This document shows, piece by piece, positions 3-5,623 of a stretch of DNA of 5,623 bases (position 1 is the stretch's first letter; every line of letters begins with the position of its first letter). A model generated the notes under the pieces. That model was not told the DNA's origin. It saw only the letters and a program-made list of their open reading frames with translations, and made no database searches. The stretch comes from a virus (Duplodnaviria > Heunggongvirae > Uroviricota > Caudoviricetes), in IMG/VR virus record IMGVR_UViG_2690316175_000007; one strand, 5' to 3'. The translations under genes and the position numbers were made by a program.

Positions 3-335
3 ATTCTATTTCAGGAAGGAGTGTCCGTTAAACTCAGGCTACCTCAATTTGCGCTGGGAAGTGGTGCGCAAGTTGCGTCTAGTGGCGATATTTATGGTTC
101 AGTGTGGGAAAACAACTGGTTAAGCACATGGCTGCATAATCATGTCGTTCGGGATATTCGTCTTGGCAGCATTGAATATAAAAACGTATGGCGCGACTAC
201 GGCTTTGGCGATGCGTCAGGTTATGTTTTAACAGCCGCAATTAACAGCAATGCGGATGATATTGTCGACACTGTTGCCAGAAGGCCAATTCAGAAATTGA
301 TTGGGGGAATATGGTACAACGTGGGGAGTGTTTAA
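3..335 (+). CDS. stf: Side tail fibre protein, C-terminal variable domain (5'-partial, expressed orientation of the invertible segment)
   Basis: The frame is open from the window edge (the track's GTG at 21 is not the true start) and stops at TAA 333-335, 1 nt before the tfa start. The C-terminus ([17 protein letters not shown]) is homologous to the end of the - strand cassette ([17 protein letters not shown]). Position immediately upstream of tfa matches stf-tfa operon organisation. Confidence 0.7.
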
Positions 336-336
336 G

Positions 337-864
337 ATGATGCACCTGAAAAATATTAAGGCCGGGAATCCGAAAACACCGGAACAATACCAGCTAACTA
401 AAAAAGCGGGCGTGGTATGGCTCTTTTGCGAAGATGGCAAAAACTGGTATGAGGAACAAAAGAATTTTCAGCCAGACACCATAAAAATTGCTTACGATGA
501 GAACAACATCATCGTTGCTGTCAGTAAAGACGTTTCAACTATTAATCCTGAAGGGCTAAGCATAGTTGAAGTTCCTGATATTACGGCAAATCGTCACGCA
601 GACAATAACGGAAAATGGATGTTTCTGGATGGTAAAGTAGTAAAGAGGGAATATACAGAACAGGAACTGCAACAACAGGCCGAATCACAAAAGGCCGCAT
701 TGCTTTCCGAAGCTGAATCAGTCATCCAGCCGCTGGAACGAGCTGTCAGGCTGAATATGGCAACAGACGAGGAACGCACACGACTGGAAGCATGGGAACG
801 CTACAGTGTTCTGGTCAGCCGTGTGGATACGGCAAATCCTGAATGGCCACAAAAGCCTGAATAA
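337..864 (+). CDS. tfa: Tail fibre assembly protein (Tfa)
   Basis: ATG at 337 (second ATG at 340) preceded by a GGGGAG Shine-Dalgarno. The N-terminus [22 protein letters not shown] and the C-terminus ...[27 protein letters not shown] are typical of the Tfa family (as in Mu U, lambda Tfa). Stop TAA 862-864. Confidence 0.85.
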
Positions 865-892: not shown

Positions 893-1426
893 TCATTCTG
901 GTTGTTCGGGAAACGTTACTGGCAGGCTGGAGGTGTCTGTGGATTCAACCTTCTGCGCATAGAGCATCCACTCGGTTAATTTTTGTTTATTCTCATCGGA
1001 AATGATGCCCAGCTGTAGCTGAGAGTCCCACAGCTGGGTTTTATCCCTGACGAGCTGCAGCAGGCTCTGCTTTTCATTTTCCGCTTGTTGCCTTTGCTCT
1101 TCCTCGGTATAAGTTCGCTTTATCACCGCACCATCTTTGAACATCCAGTTGCCCGAAATATCAGCCCGGCGATTTGCTGTAATATCAGGCAACTCAACGA
1201 CACTTAAACCTTCTGGATTAATTGCTGATACATCCTTGTCTATAGCAATAATTATTCCCTCAACTGTGTAAGCCAGTTTTATTGTATCCTCCTGAAAGTT
1301 TTTTAATTCCTCATGCCAATTTTTTCCATCTTCGGACCATAACCAGATAACATCAAAATTCTTTGTTAGCTGGTATTGTTCAACGGTTTTTGGATTACCT
1401 GCGACAATGTTTTTTAAATGCTGCAT
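893..1426 (-). CDS. tfa: Tail fibre assembly protein, alternate copy (Tfa') of the invertible segment
   Basis: 177 aa starting [22 protein letters not shown]. The N-terminal two thirds resemble the + strand Tfa and the C-terminal third diverges. It starts 2 nt after the stop of the upstream - strand tail-fibre cassette. Confidence 0.85.
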
Positions 1427-1428
1427 GA

Positions 1429-1578
1429 TTATACCTGCGATACGTTATACCATGTTCCGTTAATTAACTTTTGTATTGGTCTGAATACTGCCGGATCATC
1501 ACCATCGACTTCACCGATAATACCAAGCCCCGTGATTACATGGCCTGATTTTTCATACATCACGCCTTTCTTCATGGT
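1429..1578 (-). pseudogene. Post-amber C-terminal remnant of the stf' cassette
   Basis: The same frame continues after the TAG for 49 codons ([49 protein letters not shown]) and ends at TAA 1429-1431. This tail is conserved with the C-terminus of the + strand stf copy, so the TAG is a recent nonsense change rather than the native stop. Confidence 0.6.
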
Positions 1579-2355
1579 CTAAACAACTCGTGTGCCAAGT
1601 CTGACATCTCTCACATAGCGGGAATCAAAGTTACCGTAATCCGAGGGATTAACACGTCCCGTAATATTTATGGTTTTATTACTTTGAATGCTTCCGGAGA
1701 CAAAGCGCATAACATGGACGTTATTAGCATAAACATCCAGATTACCATCGCCTTTTTGTTTAAAGCCCGTGTCATTATCACCCAATACAATCGAATTACC
1801 GCCAAGAGCACTGGATGTTCCGATACCCAGTGCACCATTCAGTTGACCACCAGATAACGGCAGTGCACCAACATCTCCTGCTGAAGGTTTTCTGGTGGTG
1901 TAAAATTCGGACCAGTCGGCTTCAAAACCATAACCATCACGGGCTGAACGATAAAAAATACCGCCATTTTTATAATTAATCCGAAACTGAGCTGCAGGAC
2001 AACTTCCTTCTCCCATATAAAAATGAATAATTAACGTTGATGCACCACTAATAGTTGCGTTATAGGCTCCGCTACTCCAGTTCCATCCAACTGCTTTATC
2101 ATTCGCAACGGTGCTTCCTGTTTTCCCTAAGGCAAACGCACCAACATGACTTGCTTTTAATGTGATATCGGAGGAACCATCAAAAGCCACATTGCTTATT
2201 TTCCTGGCAGTTTTTAATTTTGCAGCTGTAGAAGCATTGCCGGATAGTTCACCAGAAAGGCCACCGCTGAATGTTTGTCGATTAGTCCAGGTATTCGCTG
2301 TACTGAGTAACGGTATTTTCTCCCCGCTTGTGCCGAGTTCTCGTAAACCGAGGTT
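1579..2355 (-). CDS. stf: Alternate side tail fibre variable cassette (stf'), silent orientation, with no start of its own; interrupted by an in-frame TAG at 1579-1581
   Basis: On the - strand the frame is open from 2355 (just inside the crossover site) down to the TAG at 1579-1581. The translation (...GEKIPLLSTANTWTNRQTFSGGLSGELSGNASTAAKLKTARKISN...VRDVRLGTRVV*) is glycine/serine-rich and tail-fibre-like. The track ORF 1579..2190 is the Met-delimited part of the same frame. Confidence 0.7.
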   Translation of the reverse strand, partial: NLGLRELGTSGEKIPLLSTANTWTNRQTFSGGLSGELSGNASTAAKLKTARKISNVAFDGSSDITLKASHVGAFALGKTGSTVANDKAVGWNWSSGAYNATISGASTLIIHFYMGEGSCPAAQFRINYKNGGIFYRSARDGYGFEADWSEFYTTRKPSAGDVGALPLSGGQLNGALGIGTSSALGGNSIVLGDNDTGFKQKGDGNLDVYANNVHVMRFVSGSIQSNKTINITGRVNPSDYGNFDSRYVRDVRLGTRVV

Positions 2356-2363
2356 TTAGATAA
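2338..2363. other. 26-bp site-specific recombination (crossover) site of the Gin/Pin/Hin invertase family; right boundary of the invertible segment
   Basis: TTCTCGTAAACC-GA-GGTTTTAGATAA: two imperfect inverted 12-bp half-sites around a 2-bp core. About 23 of 26 positions match the Mu gix site as I recall it. It lies inside the stf' reading frame and 55 bp upstream of pin, as in Mu G, P1 C and e14 P segments. Confidence 0.7.
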
Positions 2364-2417: not shown

Positions 2418-2744
2418 GTGCTGATTGGCTATGTAAGGGTATCAACAAATGACCAGAATACAGACCTGCAACGAAACGCTCTTGTTTGTGCAGGATATGA
2501 ACAAATATTTGAAGATAAATTAAGCGGAACAAGGACAGGCCGACCTGGATTAAAACGTGCTTTAAAGCGCCTTCAAAAAGGTGACGCACTGGTTGTCTGA
2601 AAACTGGACTGACTGGGGCACTGTATGCGGCATCTTGTCGTGCTGGTGGTGGAAGCCTAGAAAAAGTATCGGGTGTTGCTGAACCGTGTTGATACATCAA
2701 CTGCACCTGATATTGAGTGGCCTGCAAATCCTGTCAGGGAGTAA
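2418..2744 (+). pseudogene. pin: DNA invertase Pin/Gin-family serine recombinase, inactivated: in-frame TGA at 2598-2600 and 2610-2612, then in-frame fusion to a tfa 3' fragment carrying a TAG at 2658-2660
   Basis: GTG start at 2418 with a GGGAG Shine-Dalgarno. MLIGYVRVSTNDQNTDLQRNALVCAGYEQIFEDKLSGTRTGRPGLKRALKRLQKGDALVV* is the serine-recombinase catalytic N-terminus (active-site Ser in YVRVSTNDQ). The stops fall where Pin, as I recall it, has Trp61 and Arg65. After ...LVVLVVE the frame reads [29 protein letters not shown], which is a Tfa C-terminus. The C-terminal helix-turn-helix domain is absent. Confidence 0.8.
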
Positions 2745-2792
2745 TCATTGGGATTATGCCGCAGCACGTCTTAAGCAAGAACGTGCTGCGGT
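2651..2792 (+). repeat. tfa 3'-end remnant copy A plus downstream hairpin; direct repeat of copy C
   Basis: Positions 2664-2764 are identical to 3944-4044 (101 bp). The flanks differ by a few substitutions (for example TAG here versus TGG in copy C) and a 1-nt indel in the hairpin. Confidence 0.85.
2759..2791 (+). terminator. Hairpin after tfa remnant A (putative intrinsic terminator)
   Basis: 11-bp stem CCGCAGCACGT / ACGTGCTGCGG with an 11-nt loop. A T-run (2802-2807) follows about 10 nt later, which is not ideally placed. It lies between the remnant stop and the convergent methyltransferase stop. Confidence 0.4.
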
Positions 2793-2798
2793 TGGATG

Positions 2799-3467
2799 CT
2801 ATTTTTTCCCTGAAGCGGAAAACATTACTACAGTACCTTGAACCTTGGTTTTAACATTCTCGAAATGCTCTGAGAGTATATGTGTTAAGCCTTCTTCGGA
2901 ATCTTTTGTGTTTGAAAAGATGCCTTTCTGATTGTAAATGCGCATCAGTTTTTGACCGAAGCTATTGTGCACAACTCCATCGCCAAGAATTGTGGCTCCG
3001 TATAGAGTTCCATCGTCAGTTAAGGCCTGCGCCGCATTGCGTATTACACAGCTTTTTGTAGATATATTTCCAGGCAGGCAGTGAAGAAGGTAAAACATGG
3101 AAATGGAATCAAATTGACCATGTAACGCCGCGGGATAAGGTTCAAAAACATCATGGCTAATTTTATGTTTAATTTTTGATTCCCCAGCCCTTGTAGATGC
3201 CGCGTTCAGGCTAGCTTCGTTCAAATCCATTAAAGATATCAGACTACTCTCAGGTACGTGAGTAAGGTAAAACCCAGTTCCAACACCAATATCCAGATGG
3301 TTGTTACCTAAATGTTCCAGAAAGTGTGGAAGAAGGTGTTCCTTTGTAGGACATCCCCATGCAAGCCGATTTGATACTCCCAAAACCCACCAGTCATAAA
3401 GCTTTAGGGTAAGTGGTGTGTAAATTTTAGCCCCATCATCTGTGTTTGTTTTCATTGATTTCACCAT
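2799..3467 (-). CDS. Class I SAM-dependent methyltransferase (small-molecule type, UbiE-like fold); probable phage moron
   Basis: 222-aa ORF; a second ATG at 3455 has a better Shine-Dalgarno (GGTGA). Motif I is HLDIGVGTG, with an acidic post-I residue (LMDLNE), motif II around FDSISMFYLLHCLPG, and motif III LTDDGTLYG. The N-terminal YDWWVLGVSNRLAW resembles the UbiE-type YD...S.....W pattern. There is no DPPY/NPPF or PCQ DNA-methyltransferase motif. It may be a homologue of the e14 ymfD product (similar length, same annotated function), but I cannot confirm this from memory. Confidence 0.8.
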   Translation of the reverse strand: MVKSMKTNTDDGAKIYTPLTLKLYDWWVLGVSNRLAWGCPTKEHLLPHFLEHLGNNHLDIGVGTGFYLTHVPESSLISLMDLNEASLNAASTRAGESKIKHKISHDVFEPYPAALHGQFDSISMFYLLHCLPGNISTKSCVIRNAAQALTDDGTLYGATILGDGVVHNSFGQKLMRIYNQKGIFSNTKDSEEGLTHILSEHFENVKTKVQGTVVMFSASGKK

Positions 3468-3486
3468 GTTATAGTTTTATTTGTGA

Positions 3487-3515
3487 ATTAAATCAATTAT
3501 GGCGATGAATTACAA
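3487..3515 (-). promoter_or_regulatory. Putative sigma70 promoter for the methyltransferase
   Basis: On the - strand: -35 TTGTAA (3510-3515), 17-bp spacer, -10 TTTAAT (3487-3492), about 20-30 nt upstream of the start codon. Confidence 0.3.
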
Positions 3516-3559
3516 GGGGTTAAATGCTGCCGCAGCATAGCGATATTGAAATAGCCTAG

Positions 3560-3791
3560 TATGCTTCGATACAGCAGGAGCCGAATGGCTGGAAGACCGT
3601 CACCACACAGTTCTACATCCAGGAATTTAGTGAGTATATTGCGCCACTGCAGGATGCTGTAGATCTGGAAATCGCAACGGAGGAAGAAAGATCGTTGCTG
3701 GAGGCATGGAATAAATATCGGGTATTGTTGAATCGTGTTGATACATCAACTGCACCTGATATTGAGTGGCCGGAAGAACCAGACACAATGT
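3560..3791 (+). pseudogene. tfa 3' fragment B (C-terminal ~77 codons of a tail fibre assembly gene, no start codon)
   Basis: The frame opens after TAG 3557-3559 and reads ...[68 protein letters not shown]. This aligns with the C-terminus of the intact Tfa (...[46 protein letters not shown]). A 38-bp core is identical to copies A and C. Confidence 0.6.
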
Positions 3792-3865
3792 AAGGCAGTA
3801 TGACTTTCCGTGAGACAGATGCTGGCCAACGTGGGATATTTAACGCGGGTTAACATCGTTGTCAG

Positions 3866-3926
3866 NNNNNNNNNNNNNNNNNNNNNNNNNNNNNNNNNNN
3901 NNNNNNNNNNNNNNNNNNNNNNNNNN
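3866..3926. other. Assembly gap (61 N)
   Basis: Run of N characters. The track ORF 3862..4194 (-) with X residues is an artefact of this gap. Confidence 0.95.
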
Positions 3927-3928
3927 TG

Positions 3929-4024
3929 CTGGAAGCCTGGAAGAAGTATCGGGTGTTGCTGAACCGTGTTGATACATCAACTGCACCTGATATTGAGTGG
4001 CCTGCAAATCCTGTCAGGGAGTAA
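3929..4024 (+). pseudogene. tfa 3' fragment C (starts at the gap); direct repeat of copy A
   Basis: Reads [32 protein letters not shown] with TAA at 4022-4024. Positions 3944-4044 are identical to 2664-2764. Unlike copy A, the Trp codon is intact here (TGG). Confidence 0.6.
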
Positions 4025-4038
4025 TCATTGGGATTATG

Positions 4039-4072
4039 CCGCAGACACGTCGTATGCAGGAACGTGCTGCGG
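4039..4072 (+). terminator. Hairpin after tfa remnant C (putative intrinsic terminator, bulged stem)
   Basis: CCGCAGaCACGT ... ACGTGCTGCGG, followed by the T-rich TTAGTTTGTGAGCTTTCG. Confidence 0.35.
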
Positions 4073-4138
4073 TTAGTTTGTGAGCTTTCGATAGTGGTTG
4101 TTATTTTTGCCCTTATTTGTTCCGGAGGCCATGGTTCA

Positions 4139-4435: not shown

Positions 4436-4993
4436 TTAAAACCGCATCAACCTTTCCACCAATTGTTCTTTACGGGCAACGATCCACCCATGTTGCTCCA
4501 GATAAAATTTAAACCGTTCCAGAGTGCATACCATCGCATCGGCGGGGACTTTTTCTGTGAACTCGACCTGACCGTGTTTATCGAAGTGGATCAGTAATGC
4601 GCATCCATTATTTGGGGCGGGGGAGTTTTGTGCTGCAGGAGGACGTTTGTGGAGTTCTTCTTCCATTGCGTTAAATTTTTCAATGTAAGCTTCTTTTAGT
4701 CTGGCTGCTTTTTTGCCAGTAAATCCCATTACGAGGAACATGAAGCCGTCTTTTGTGATCAGGTAGCATCGTGATTCACGTTCTGCGCCGTTGCCAATTT
4801 CGACAGTCTGAACATCGGCCGAAAAGTTGGCTGATGTAAATTCGGGAGAGCAGTCGAGTGTGTCAATCTTAGCTAAAACGTGTTTATGTTGTTTATCGAA
4901 GTAGTCGGCAACAGCTTGAGAGGTGGTAACCAGGCGACCATCTTTGAAAAAGACTTTTGGTGACTCGTTAGAAAAAGTTATAGCTGTATTCAT
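4436..4993 (-). CDS. rha: Rha-family phage regulatory protein
   Basis: ATG at 4993 with GGAG 9 nt upstream; the track's TTG at 5008 is less likely. The N-terminus MNTAITFSNESPKVFFKDGRLVTTSQAVADYFDKQHKHVLAKIDTL matches the Rha N-terminal domain signature (LVT.S..VA..F.K.H..VL..I). The C-terminal half is unassigned. Confidence 0.75.
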   Translation of the reverse strand: MNTAITFSNESPKVFFKDGRLVTTSQAVADYFDKQHKHVLAKIDTLDCSPEFTSANFSADVQTVEIGNGAERESRCYLITKDGFMFLVMGFTGKKAARLKEAYIEKFNAMEEELHKRPPAAQNSPAPNNGCALLIHFDKHGQVEFTEKVPADAMVCTLERFKFYLEQHGWIVARKEQLVERLMRF

Positions 4994-5020
4994 ATGTGAT
5001 GACTCCAATTAATTGGATGA

Positions 5021-5054
5021 TCACCACCTCTGACGCCAATCAGGGAGGTGGTGA
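5021..5054. promoter_or_regulatory. Perfect 10-bp inverted repeat in the rha leader/promoter region (candidate operator or RNA hairpin)
   Basis: TCACCACCTC-(14 nt)-GAGGTGGTGA, 28-61 nt upstream of the rha ATG. It overlaps a TGATCA palindrome at 5017-5022. Confidence 0.4.
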
Positions 5055-5275
5055 GACGTACAGGGTTGGCGTAACCGGTCATCACAAAACCCGGCGCGGA
5101 TTTCTCCGCCCCTGCACGCCCCACCATAATGCGAATGTGGCAATGCTTAACGCAAAAAAAACCGCAAACGCGGCTATGCGTTGTGATGTTATCCGAGACG
5201 CCAATCCCGACAACCGATTTTGCGGTTGTGTGAGGAATATAGCCCCGGAGAACAAAAACTGTCAACGGGCAAAAA

Positions 5276-5284
5276 NNNNNNNNN
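5276..5284. other. Assembly gap (9 N)
   Basis: Run of N characters. Confidence 0.95.
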
Positions 5285-5463
5285 NAAATTTCCGTTATCA
5301 GGAATGTATAAAATTAAAGCGATCGAGCAAAAAATCCTTTCTGCAAAACTAAAAAAGATTTCAATAAAATCAGGCAGTTAAAAACACGGAAAACGGTATA
5401 AAAAAGCGCCTCAAAATCCTGTTTTTTCTTTCAGATACAATGTCTTATTGCATTTTTTAAAAC

Positions 5464-5579
5464 ATGTCAGTGTGGTACATGGATATCGATACCATCGCCA
5501 ATTATAAACTGGGCGGTGCACAGCAACATGATAGCGTACGCCTCGATCCGTGGGTGTTTATGTTCTCAGCAGGATATCG
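5464..5579 (+). CDS. Hypothetical ORF, 5' part only; reading frame runs into the IS1 end (probably disrupted by the insertion)
   Basis: ATG at 5464 directly follows an in-frame TAA. It reads MSVWYMDIDTIANYKLGGAQQHDSVRLDPWVFMFSAGYR and continues into IS1 sequence. The - strand here is closed by stops. An AT-rich promoter-like region lies upstream. No family was recognised. Confidence 0.25.
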
Positions 5580-5623
5580 GGTAATGACTCCAACTTATTG
5601 ATAGTGTTTTATGTTCAGATAAT
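5580..5623 (-). mobile_element. IS1 insertion sequence, terminal 44 bp (right inverted-repeat end; element continues beyond the window, transposase genes on the - strand)
   Basis: GGTAATGACTCCAACTTATTGATAGTGTTTTATGTTCAGATAAT matches the reverse complement of the IS1 right end (…ATTATCTGAACATAAAACACTATCAATAAGTTGGAGTCATTACC) as I recall it. Confidence 0.9.

What the first reader, a model, noticed from the sequence alone, without database searches (positions are those of the whole stretch)
2799..3515. SAM-dependent methyltransferase moron at the position where Mu carries mom and e14 carries mcrA
Immediately downstream of the invertase locus, on the opposite strand, is a 222-aa class I methyltransferase with a plausible sigma70 promoter (-35 TTGTAA, -10 TTTAAT) and a hairpin after its stop. 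In Mu the gene downstream of gin is the DNA-modification gene mom, and in e14 the gene after pinE is the restriction gene mcrA. This junction is therefore a recurrent site for nucleic-acid modification or restriction cargo. This protein has no DNA-methyltransferase motif (DPPY/NPPF or PCQ), so its substrate is open: a small molecule, a protein or an unusual nucleic-acid modification.
Basis: partly seen in the sequence, partly recalled or inferred. Interest (0 to 1): 0.6.

Follow-up and report, generated by a model that had tools for sequence, protein, structure and literature searches.

The report
Intact ybcY methyltransferase prophage cargo gene
The gene is real but already catalogued: it is the intact form of the E. 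coli K-12 pseudogene ybcY, a small-molecule-type methyltransferase of unknown substrate that lambdoid prophages carry beside a tail-fibre-assembly gene remnant, and its position next to a dead invertase here is incidental.

Summary
The ORF at 2799-3467 (-) is a genuine 222-aa class I SAM methyltransferase (the true start is probably M5 at 3455). It is not related to e14 YmfD. It is the intact allele of K-12 ybcY (DLP12 pseudogene), 99% identical across the whole tfaD-3'end/ybcY/tfaX module. About 70% of complete E. coli genomes and some inducible lambdoid phages carry it. Its constant neighbour is a tail-fibre-assembly (tfa) 3' end, not an invertase. The pin gene here is a decayed 5' fragment, and the pin/ybcY junction occurs in only about 11% of carriers. 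Outside Escherichia/Shigella, homologues (50-90% identity) lie in ordinary chromosomal sites, islands, IS-flanked spots and plasmids, including Klebsiella hypervirulence plasmids. None of these has tail-fibre linkage or a conserved partner gene. There are no DNA-methyltransferase motifs. All nearest structures are small-molecule or lipid methyltransferases. Profile comparison places the family's invariant His129-Cys130 on the two metal-binding histidines of the carboxyl O-methyltransferases BelI/CysG. dN/dS of 0.1-0.2 shows purifying selection. Best reading: a self-expressed cargo gene encoding a probably metal-assisted small-molecule methyltransferase of unknown substrate. The mom/mcrA "nucleic-acid modification slot" analogy is not supported. 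This is a known gene of unknown function, of modest interest.

The parts
2799..3467 (-). ybcY coding sequence (class I SAM-dependent methyltransferase), annotated 222 aa; probable true start is the ATG at 3455 (M5), giving 218 aa; TAG stop at 2801->2799
   Evidence: ORF; Pfam; PHROG 2132; 99% identical to WP_000240999.1; 99% DNA identity to K-12 ybcY; M5 invariant in homologues; AF2 pLDDT 90
3468..3523 (-). AT-rich upstream spacer with three overlapping sigma70-like candidates: TTGTAA-17-TTTAAT (3515->3487), TTAACC-16-CATAAT (3523->3496), TTGATT-17-TATAAC (3496->3468)
   Evidence: Sequence; scan (not above chance); RpoD SELEX site with H-NS in the near-identical K-12 spacer
2759..2791 (.). Strong hairpin 8 nt after the ybcY stop, lying between the convergent tfa remnant and ybcY; no U-run on the ybcY strand; T-run 10 nt downstream on the + strand
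   Evidence: Fold dG -23.9, z -5.3; repeated at 4046-4074 as part of the tfa-3' module
2647..2744 (+). tfa (tail-fibre assembly) 3'-end remnant, copy 1 of a direct repeat that brackets the ybcY cassette
   Evidence: Repeat family D1 2647-2764 / 3927-4044 (97%) / 3696-3813 (70%); annotated as partial tfa in ST131 genomes
3617..3793 (+). tfaX-like tfa 3' remnant transcribed divergently from ybcY; overlaps the Rfam IS009 match (3547-3750)
   Evidence: Annotation in L003 and K-12; Rfam IS009 110.8 bits, just under the gathering score of 117
3927..4074 (+). Third tfa 3' end plus hairpin copy, closing the direct-repeat bracket around ybcY-tfaX
2418..2651 (+). pin invertase pseudogene: 5' fragment with GTG start, in-frame stops at 2598-2600 and 2610-2612, fused by microhomology to the tfa 3' remnant
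   Evidence: Pfam Resolvase N-terminal domain only; alignment with K-12 pinE; annotated 'recombinase, missing C-terminus'
2338..2363 (+). 26-bp gix/hix-type crossover site of the now frozen invertible tail-fibre segment
   Evidence: Unique match, 0 expected by chance; resemblance to Gin/Pin sites is from my own knowledge

Best explanation
The feature is the intact allele of ybcY, a stand-alone class I SAM-dependent methyltransferase. It rides as a cargo gene (moron) in a small cassette, tfa-3'end / hairpin / ybcY(-) / AT-rich promoter spacer / tfaX, at the right end of the late region of lambdoid (pro)phages. Direct repeats of the tfa 3' end bracket the cassette, so it can move between phages by homologous recombination within tail-fibre-assembly genes. 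In this window a deletion has additionally fused a decaying pin invertase fragment to the left repeat. Shown: identity with ybcY, the SAM-binding motifs and fold, the cassette structure, the distribution, purifying selection, and absence of DNA-methyltransferase motifs. Inferred: the enzyme methylates a small, probably anionic molecule (a carboxylate, enolate or similar oxyanion) rather than DNA. It would hold a divalent metal on the invariant His129-Cys130 pair just after strand beta4. This is the position of the two metal-ligand histidines of the carboxyl O-methyltransferases BelI/CysG; invariant Asp189/Asn186, His57 and Cys39 are possible further ligands, and an aromatic N-terminal lid (Tyr16, Tyr24, Trp37) would close over the substrate. 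In the lysogen it would be expressed from its own H-NS-silenced sigma70 promoter, independently of late transcription, and change host chemistry (detoxification or tailoring of a metabolite). The substrate is unknown.
Confidence: 0.55

Rival explanations
1. DNA modification or anti-restriction enzyme occupying a 'mom/mcrA slot' downstream of the invertase. YbcY would methylate phage or host DNA to evade or impose restriction.
For: Physical position after a pin fragment in this window. e14 does have pinE followed by mcrA. The family pI is basic.
Confidence: 0.04
2. RNA (tRNA/rRNA) or protein methyltransferase that tunes host translation or a host or phage protein in the lysogen.
Against: No RNA-binding extension is present. 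Profile searches pick small-molecule enzymes first: JHAMT, UbiG and BelI/CysG. The His-Cys pair aligns with a metal site used for small oxyanion substrates. One relative is fused to a P450 in an operon with a second P450. Occurrence is patchy and on accessory elements (plasmids, islands, IS-flanked), rather than the core-genome pattern of translation-apparatus modifiers.
Confidence: 0.15
3. Functionless passenger. ybcY is kept only because it lies inside a recombination-prone tfa-flanked cassette that hitch-hikes between prophages, with no role for phage or host.
For: K-12 carries it as a pseudogene without known consequence. A ybcY mutant showed no distinct phenotype in the single assay found (Hha toxicity). 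The surroundings are full of decayed remnants: pin, tfa copies and a DUF4376 fragment.
Against: dN/dS is 0.11-0.22 across copies from phage, plasmid, island and chromosome. All SAM-binding and family-invariant residues are retained. The K-12 lesion is confined to 391 mostly lab-lineage records. The main 222-aa cluster has 6589 member sequences. The family has been captured independently by unrelated mobile elements.
Confidence: 0.12

Closest known systems
E. coli K-12 ybcY (b0562), DLP12 cryptic prophage pseudogene; RefSeq WP_000240999.1 'class I SAM-dependent methyltransferase'; PHROG 2132
   Same: Same gene. DNA is 99% identical across the entire tfaD-3'end / ybcY / tfaX module. The protein is 99% identical to WP_000240999.1 and matches PHROG 2132 at E=4e-156. 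It has the same position after the tail-fibre assembly gene of lambdoid prophages.
   Different: The window copy is intact, whereas K-12 has a 2-bp deletion and an ATG->ATA change at M5. Here the cassette lies at an ompW-side prophage end and abuts a pin fragment, instead of sitting beside appY/ompT. The window allele has Thr7 where the close relatives shown have Lys; no complete E. coli genome matched the 51-nt 5' segment at 99% or better.
BelI / CysG, metal-dependent carboxyl O-methyltransferases of belactosin/cystargolide biosynthesis (PDB 9FCE, 9FCL; PMC11408123)
   Different: The second ligand is Cys, not His, which would suggest a softer metal than Ca2+. The third ligand (D191) and the carboxylate-binding Arg22 are not demonstrably conserved. 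Identity is about 18%. There is no beta-lactone gene-cluster context. The substrate is unknown.
Juvenile hormone acid O-methyltransferase (JHAMT, PDB 7EBS/7EC0) and UbiG
   Same: Best sequence and profile matches among solved structures (E=2.4e-5 and 2e-3), and Foldseek rank 2. Both are small-molecule O-methyltransferases.
   Different: Similarity is restricted to the SAM-binding core (about 100 residues). The YbcY lid and the His-Cys dyad are family-specific.
   Same: All are accessory genes near the invertase/tail-fibre end of a prophage (for e14).
   Different: ymfD shows no sequence similarity (E=14). mcrA is an HNH-type restriction enzyme and Mom is not a SAM methyltransferase (my own knowledge). 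ybcY is linked to tfa, not to the invertase.

Membership tests
Class I (Rossmann-fold) SAM-dependent methyltransferases | Motif I GxGxG after beta1 | tested here: met
   L58-D59-I-G61-V-G63-T-G65 is invariant in the family; Pfam Methyltransf_12/23/25/11 are above cut-off
Class I (Rossmann-fold) SAM-dependent methyltransferases | Acidic residue at the end of beta2 (ribose) and motif III acid (adenine); seven-stranded alpha/beta fold | tested here: met
YbcY / PHROG 2132 (lambdoid prophage methyltransferase) | Near-identity to K-12 ybcY and WP_000240999.1 | tested here: met
   99% DNA identity over 907 nt; 220 of 222 aa identical; PHROG E=4e-156
YbcY / PHROG 2132 (lambdoid prophage methyltransferase) | Synteny: tfa 3' end - ybcY (opposite strand) - tfaX remnant | tested here: met
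e14 YmfD | Detectable sequence similarity | tested here: not met
   BLASTP 11.5 bits, E=14
DNA methyltransferases (N6A/N4C and C5) | Motif IV (D/N/S)PP(Y/F/W), or PCQ together with ENV in context | tested here: not met
   Regex finds no DPPY-type or PCQ motif; the only 'ENV' is in the C-terminal FENVKT, out of context
DNA methyltransferases (N6A/N4C and C5) | Target-recognition domain; structural similarity to DNA methyltransferases | tested here: not met
BelI/CysG-type metal-dependent carboxyl O-methyltransferases | First metal ligand His (H122) directly after beta4 | tested here: met
   H129 aligns with it and is 100% conserved
BelI/CysG-type metal-dependent carboxyl O-methyltransferases | Second metal ligand His (H123) | tested here: not met
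   The aligned residue is Cys130, 97% conserved
BelI/CysG-type metal-dependent carboxyl O-methyltransferases | Third ligand Asp191 and carboxylate-binding Arg22 in the N-terminal lid | tested here: inconclusive
   BelI has a roughly 20-residue insertion, so D191 and R22 fall opposite gaps. Invariant D189/N186 and K22 are only candidates
BelI/CysG-type metal-dependent carboxyl O-methyltransferases | Bound divalent metal needed for activity; carboxyl methylation of a malate-type acid | not testable with these tools
   Needs biochemistry; model coordinates could not be inspected
Phage moron (lysogenic-conversion cargo) | Present in some but absent from other closely related phages; not a structural or replication gene | tested here: met
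   Found in only 15 of 50,697 phage records, all Escherichia lambdoid phages; homologues are mostly non-phage
Phage moron (lysogenic-conversion cargo) | Own promoter and terminator, transcribed independently of the flanking operon | tested here: inconclusive
   Opposite strand to the late genes. Promoter-like hexamers are not above chance, but an RpoD SELEX site is reported in K-12. Strong hairpin without a U-tract. No transcript data

The most novel reading that the evidence does not exclude
YbcY may define an uncharacterised family of metal-dependent small-molecule methyltransferases with a His-Cys(-Asp) site. The family spans bacteria and fungi, with intronless fungal copies about 45-50% identical. 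Unrelated mobile elements have captured it repeatedly: lambdoid prophages in about 70% of E. coli, Klebsiella hypervirulence plasmids beside rmp/peg-344/iro, Erwinia plasmids, islands and IS-flanked spots. On this reading it neutralises or tailors one specific anionic metabolite or toxin, for example a host- or competitor-derived carboxylic or keto acid, and so would be a new lysogenic-conversion trait.
Probability: 0.2. Interest if true: 0.6.

Novelty: already known. Interest (0 to 1): 0.3.

Why it matters
As a sequence feature it is ordinary: an annotated gene present in thousands of genomes, and its adjacency to an invertase is an accident of prophage decay. Its value is as a well-defined 'known unknown'. 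It is an intact, selectively maintained enzyme in most E. coli, with homologues on Klebsiella hypervirulence plasmids and plant-pathogen plasmids, and no function has been assigned anywhere in the family. The alignment of its invariant His-Cys pair with the metal site of BelI/CysG gives a concrete, cheap hypothesis: metal-assisted methylation of a small oxyanion. Substrate panels and point mutants can test it.

Tried and rejected
- e14 YmfD as a relative: rejected, BLASTP E=14.
- Defence-system membership: PADLOC gives only mad2 at E=0.0034 over the generic methyltransferase core, with no partner genes nearby. Rejected.
- NCBIfam: only sub-threshold hits to CpaM and RquA, about 17 bits against cut-offs of 175-180. 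Not members.
- AFDB50 fold search for named relatives: library unavailable. The BFVD viral library gave only generic methyltransferases.
- Curated names in the deep family: two cluster look-ups and a second homologue search from the fungal member gave only 'SAM-dependent methyltransferase', 'UbiE' or 'hypothetical'.
- Guilt by association: no neighbour is conserved across genera. Alpha/beta-hydrolase or esterase neighbours occur in about 5 independent contexts among 165 neighbour clusters. That is too few to claim, and I ran no formal statistic.
- Counting the K-12 lesion with a 51-nt query failed because the low-complexity filter masked the T-run. A 131-nt query solved it.
- D189 as the equivalent of BelI D191, and K22 as the equivalent of R22: not supported by the alignment and kept only as candidates.
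- Ideas from memory not pursued for lack of any tool evidence: an ArsM-like metalloid site, a Cys nucleophile as in C5-pyrimidine methyltransferases, and aklanonic-acid or pyrone O-methyltransferase relatives (note).

Full report
OBSERVATION. The window has an ORF at 2799..3467 on the minus strand encoding 222 aa. It matches Pfam Methyltransf_12, _23, _25 and _11 above their curated cut-offs and PHROG 2132, 'unknown function', at E=4e-156. They are weak, because the -10 lacks the conserved A at position 2. A consensus scan chose an overlapping candidate instead (TTAACC-16-CATAAT, 3523->3496) and found no more promoter-like sites than shuffles give. Independent experimental support exists for K-12, whose spacer differs by one base. 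A genomic-SELEX study lists an RpoD-holoenzyme site with H-NS between ybcY and tfaX and proposes TTGATT-17-TATAAC, which is 3496->3468 here (PMC3946193). The hairpin after the stop is real (2759-2791; dG -23.9 kcal/mol; z -5.3) but has no U-run on the gene's strand. Every homologue starts at the residue equivalent to M5, which is invariant in the alignment, so the real start is probably the ATG at 3455. No DPPY-type or PCQ motif is present.

WHAT THE GENE IS. The 921-bp stretch 2700-3620 matches 3797 of 5426 complete E. coli genomes over at least 80% of its length, annotated 'class I SAM-dependent methyltransferase' flanked by two 'tail fiber assembly protein' features. The protein is 220/222 identical to WP_000240999.1. 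In K-12 the same module is tfaD / ybcY (b0562, pseudogene) / tfaX in the DLP12 cryptic prophage. The alignment is 99% identical across gene and flanks, and K-12 has a 2-bp deletion plus an ATG->ATA change at M5. The K-12 lesion is confined to 391 records, while about 3436 records carry the undeleted form. The gene also occurs, at least 98% identical, in 15 phage records, all Escherichia. One of them, ev243, is a lambda-type phage. The literature mentions ybcY only in passing and reports no function. A search for the RefSeq accession found nothing.

CONTEXT IN THE WINDOW. Comparison with annotated ST131-type genomes and with a prophage lacking any invertase shows the window is the right end of a lambdoid prophage inserted at ompW, next to trp. 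Its order is:
- an invertible tail-fibre segment: alternative fibre C-termini at 21-335 (+) and 1429-2190 (-), and convergent tfa genes at 301-864 (+) and 893-1426 (-);
- a 26-bp crossover site at 2338-2363;
- a pin fragment;
- a tfa 3' remnant, then ybcY (-), then a tfaX-like remnant;
- a masked gap, then another tfa 3' remnant and a DUF4376 remnant;
- rha and ash genes (-), and an ompW 3' fragment.
The pin gene is dead. Homology to K-12 pinE runs only from 2418 to about 2651, with in-frame stops at 2598 and 2610, and then switches by microhomology into the last ~35 codons of a tfa gene. The ybcY-tfaX segment is bracketed by direct repeats of 'tfa 3' end + hairpin' (2647-2793 and 3927-4074, 97%/90% identical), with a weaker third copy at 3696-3813.

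IS THE INVERTASE ADJACENCY MEANINGFUL? The pin-fragment/tfa-remnant/ybcY junction (2394-2860) is covered at 80% or more in only 427 genomes, against 3797 for the ybcY module. That is about 11% of carriers. In JE86-ST05, phage ev243 and K-12 DLP12 the order is tail fibre - tfa - ybcY(-) - tfa remnant, with no invertase. The constant partner is the tfa 3' end, so the analogy with gin-mom and pinE-mcrA is not supported for this gene. e14 does have pinE followed by mcrA.

THE WIDER FAMILY. There are 2296 homologues at E<=1e-3 in the word-indexed search. There are 1320 representatives at 50% clustering, of which 196 have E<1e-30. At 50-75% identity the family spans many Enterobacterales, Pasteurellaceae, Pseudomonas, Xanthomonadales and Oxalobacteraceae. 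At about 45-50% identity it spans many ascomycete fungi. The Aspergillus copy is intronless and sits among tailoring-type enzymes. Contexts vary widely:
- Salmonella, Enterobacter, Erwinia and Yersinia copies are solitary genes among ordinary chromosomal genes.
- Others lie in an integrase island beside mutS, are IS-flanked, or sit on a CcdAB/KfrA plasmid.
- Others lie in a PerC/autotransporter island or a Citrobacter islet with DinI and a CdiI immunity gene.
- One lineage is on 603 Klebsiella plasmids, in the one examined (a liver-abscess isolate) next to rmpC/peg-344/iroN and an IS. Others are on Erwinia plasmids and, more distantly, Prescottella equi plasmids.
In 80 species-representative loci, tfa or tail-fibre sequence was found next to the gene only for the copies at least 98% identical (7 loci, all Escherichia/Shigella apart from one mislabelled MAG); one further locus had only resolvase-like hits. 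No neighbour is conserved across genera. The phage-borne clade is thus a narrow, recent branch of a promiscuously mobile family. dN/dS between the window copy and plasmid, island and chromosomal copies is 0.11-0.22, so the protein is under purifying selection.

A MECHANISTIC LEAD. BelI and CysG methylate the C1 carboxylate of 3-sec-butylmalate and 3-isopropylmalate. They use a His122-His123-Asp191 motif to hold a catalytic divalent metal, and Arg22 to bind the carboxylate (PMC11408123). I rebuilt their sequences from the paper's supplement. hhalign of the YbcY alignment against BelI+CysG gives 95% probability (E=3e-8). It places H129 on H122, C130 on H123, K138 on K129, D81 on D77 (ribose) and D106 on D102 (adenine). 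A global alignment agrees. The third ligand and Arg22 cannot be matched, because BelI has a ~20-residue insertion there. SgvM is a second precedent: two His in its Rossmann domain hold Zn2+ as a Lewis acid for an alpha-keto acid (PMC10502145). I therefore infer, but have not shown, that YbcY binds a metal at His129/Cys130 and methylates a small oxyanionic substrate. The Cys would suggest Zn or Fe rather than Ca. I could not inspect model coordinates, so the geometry is untested. The family's basic pI (median 8.6-8.9, though 6.9 for the window copy) fits anionic ligands but also keeps an RNA target possible.

VERDICT. The feature is real and functional-looking, but it is an already catalogued gene: ybcY / WP_000240999.1 / PHROG 2132. 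It is a cargo gene of lambdoid prophages tied to the tfa 3' end. Its adjacency to a decayed invertase is a minority, accidental arrangement, and nothing supports a role in nucleic-acid modification. The most likely mechanism is metal-assisted methylation of a small molecule of unknown identity (confidence about 0.55). The rivals are an RNA or protein target (0.15), a functionless passenger (0.12) and DNA modification (0.04). Interest is modest. The main value is a testable hypothesis for a very widespread 'known unknown' that also sits on Klebsiella hypervirulence plasmids.

Noticed in passing
window 5044-5242 (-), upstream of ash (4990-5265) and rha (4436-5008): Rfam matches above the gathering score to C4 antisense RNA (5044-5131, 75.9 bits) and isrK (5155-5229, 72.2 bits), plus the c4 a1/b1 target element (5190-5242, 43.8 bits, just under its gathering score of 46.7). 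They sit in front of an ash/Rha-family gene pair. I read this as a P1 immI-like antisense-RNA module controlling an antirepressor-type operon at the very end of the prophage; the P1 comparison is from my own knowledge.
   Followed up: partly
window 2338-2363 and 2418-2651: An intact 26-bp gix/hix-type crossover site lies next to a pin gene reduced to a 5' fragment with two in-frame stops and fused to a tfa 3' end. The invertible tail-fibre switch is therefore frozen. No partner site is in the window.
   Followed up: yes
window 1576-1581 (-): In the inverted-orientation tail-fibre C-terminus, an in-frame TAG separates ORF 1579-2190 from the 48-aa ORF 1429-1575. The + orientation copy (21-335) reads through the equivalent region as one ORF.
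   Followed up: no
window 3547-3750 (+), also 2622-2701 and 3860-3981: Rfam IS009, a predicted E. coli intergenic sRNA family, matches the tfaX-like remnant at 110.8 bits, just under the gathering score of 117. It matches the other tfa 3' repeats more weakly. The 'sRNA family' appears to be built on tfa 3'-end remnant sequence, transcribed divergently from ybcY.
   Followed up: no
window 3866-3926 and 5276-5284: Runs of N (masked sequence). The first hides the left edge of the third tfa 3' repeat, so the exact repeat boundaries there cannot be read.
   Followed up: no
L108 (Klebsiella plasmid phvKP4_1) 7001-7714; 603 Klebsiella plasmids in all: A homologue about 65% identical is carried, often in two places per plasmid, on large Klebsiella plasmids. 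In the one examined it lies beside rmpC, peg-344 and iroN and next to ISKpn2. No function is annotated.
   Followed up: partly
L111 (Aspergillus wentii) 10001-10669; many ascomycetes: Fungal homologues are 45-53% identical to bacterial ones. The Aspergillus copy is intronless (669 nt for 222 aa), which suggests inter-kingdom transfer. Its neighbours are hydrolase, beta-lactamase-fold, FAD-monooxygenase and BAHD-acyltransferase genes.
   Followed up: partly
window 5461-5601 (+): A displaced 3' fragment of ompW marks the prophage/chromosome junction (attR side), as annotated in ST131-type genomes. A 20-nt imperfect repeat (4996-5015 / 5581-5600) may be chance or related to the attachment site.
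   Followed up: no
window 3432-3482: The window allele encodes MKTNT (Thr7) where the close relatives shown encode Lys. No complete E. coli genome matches this 51-nt stretch at 99% or better, so the source strain is not among the 5426 complete genomes.
   Followed up: no
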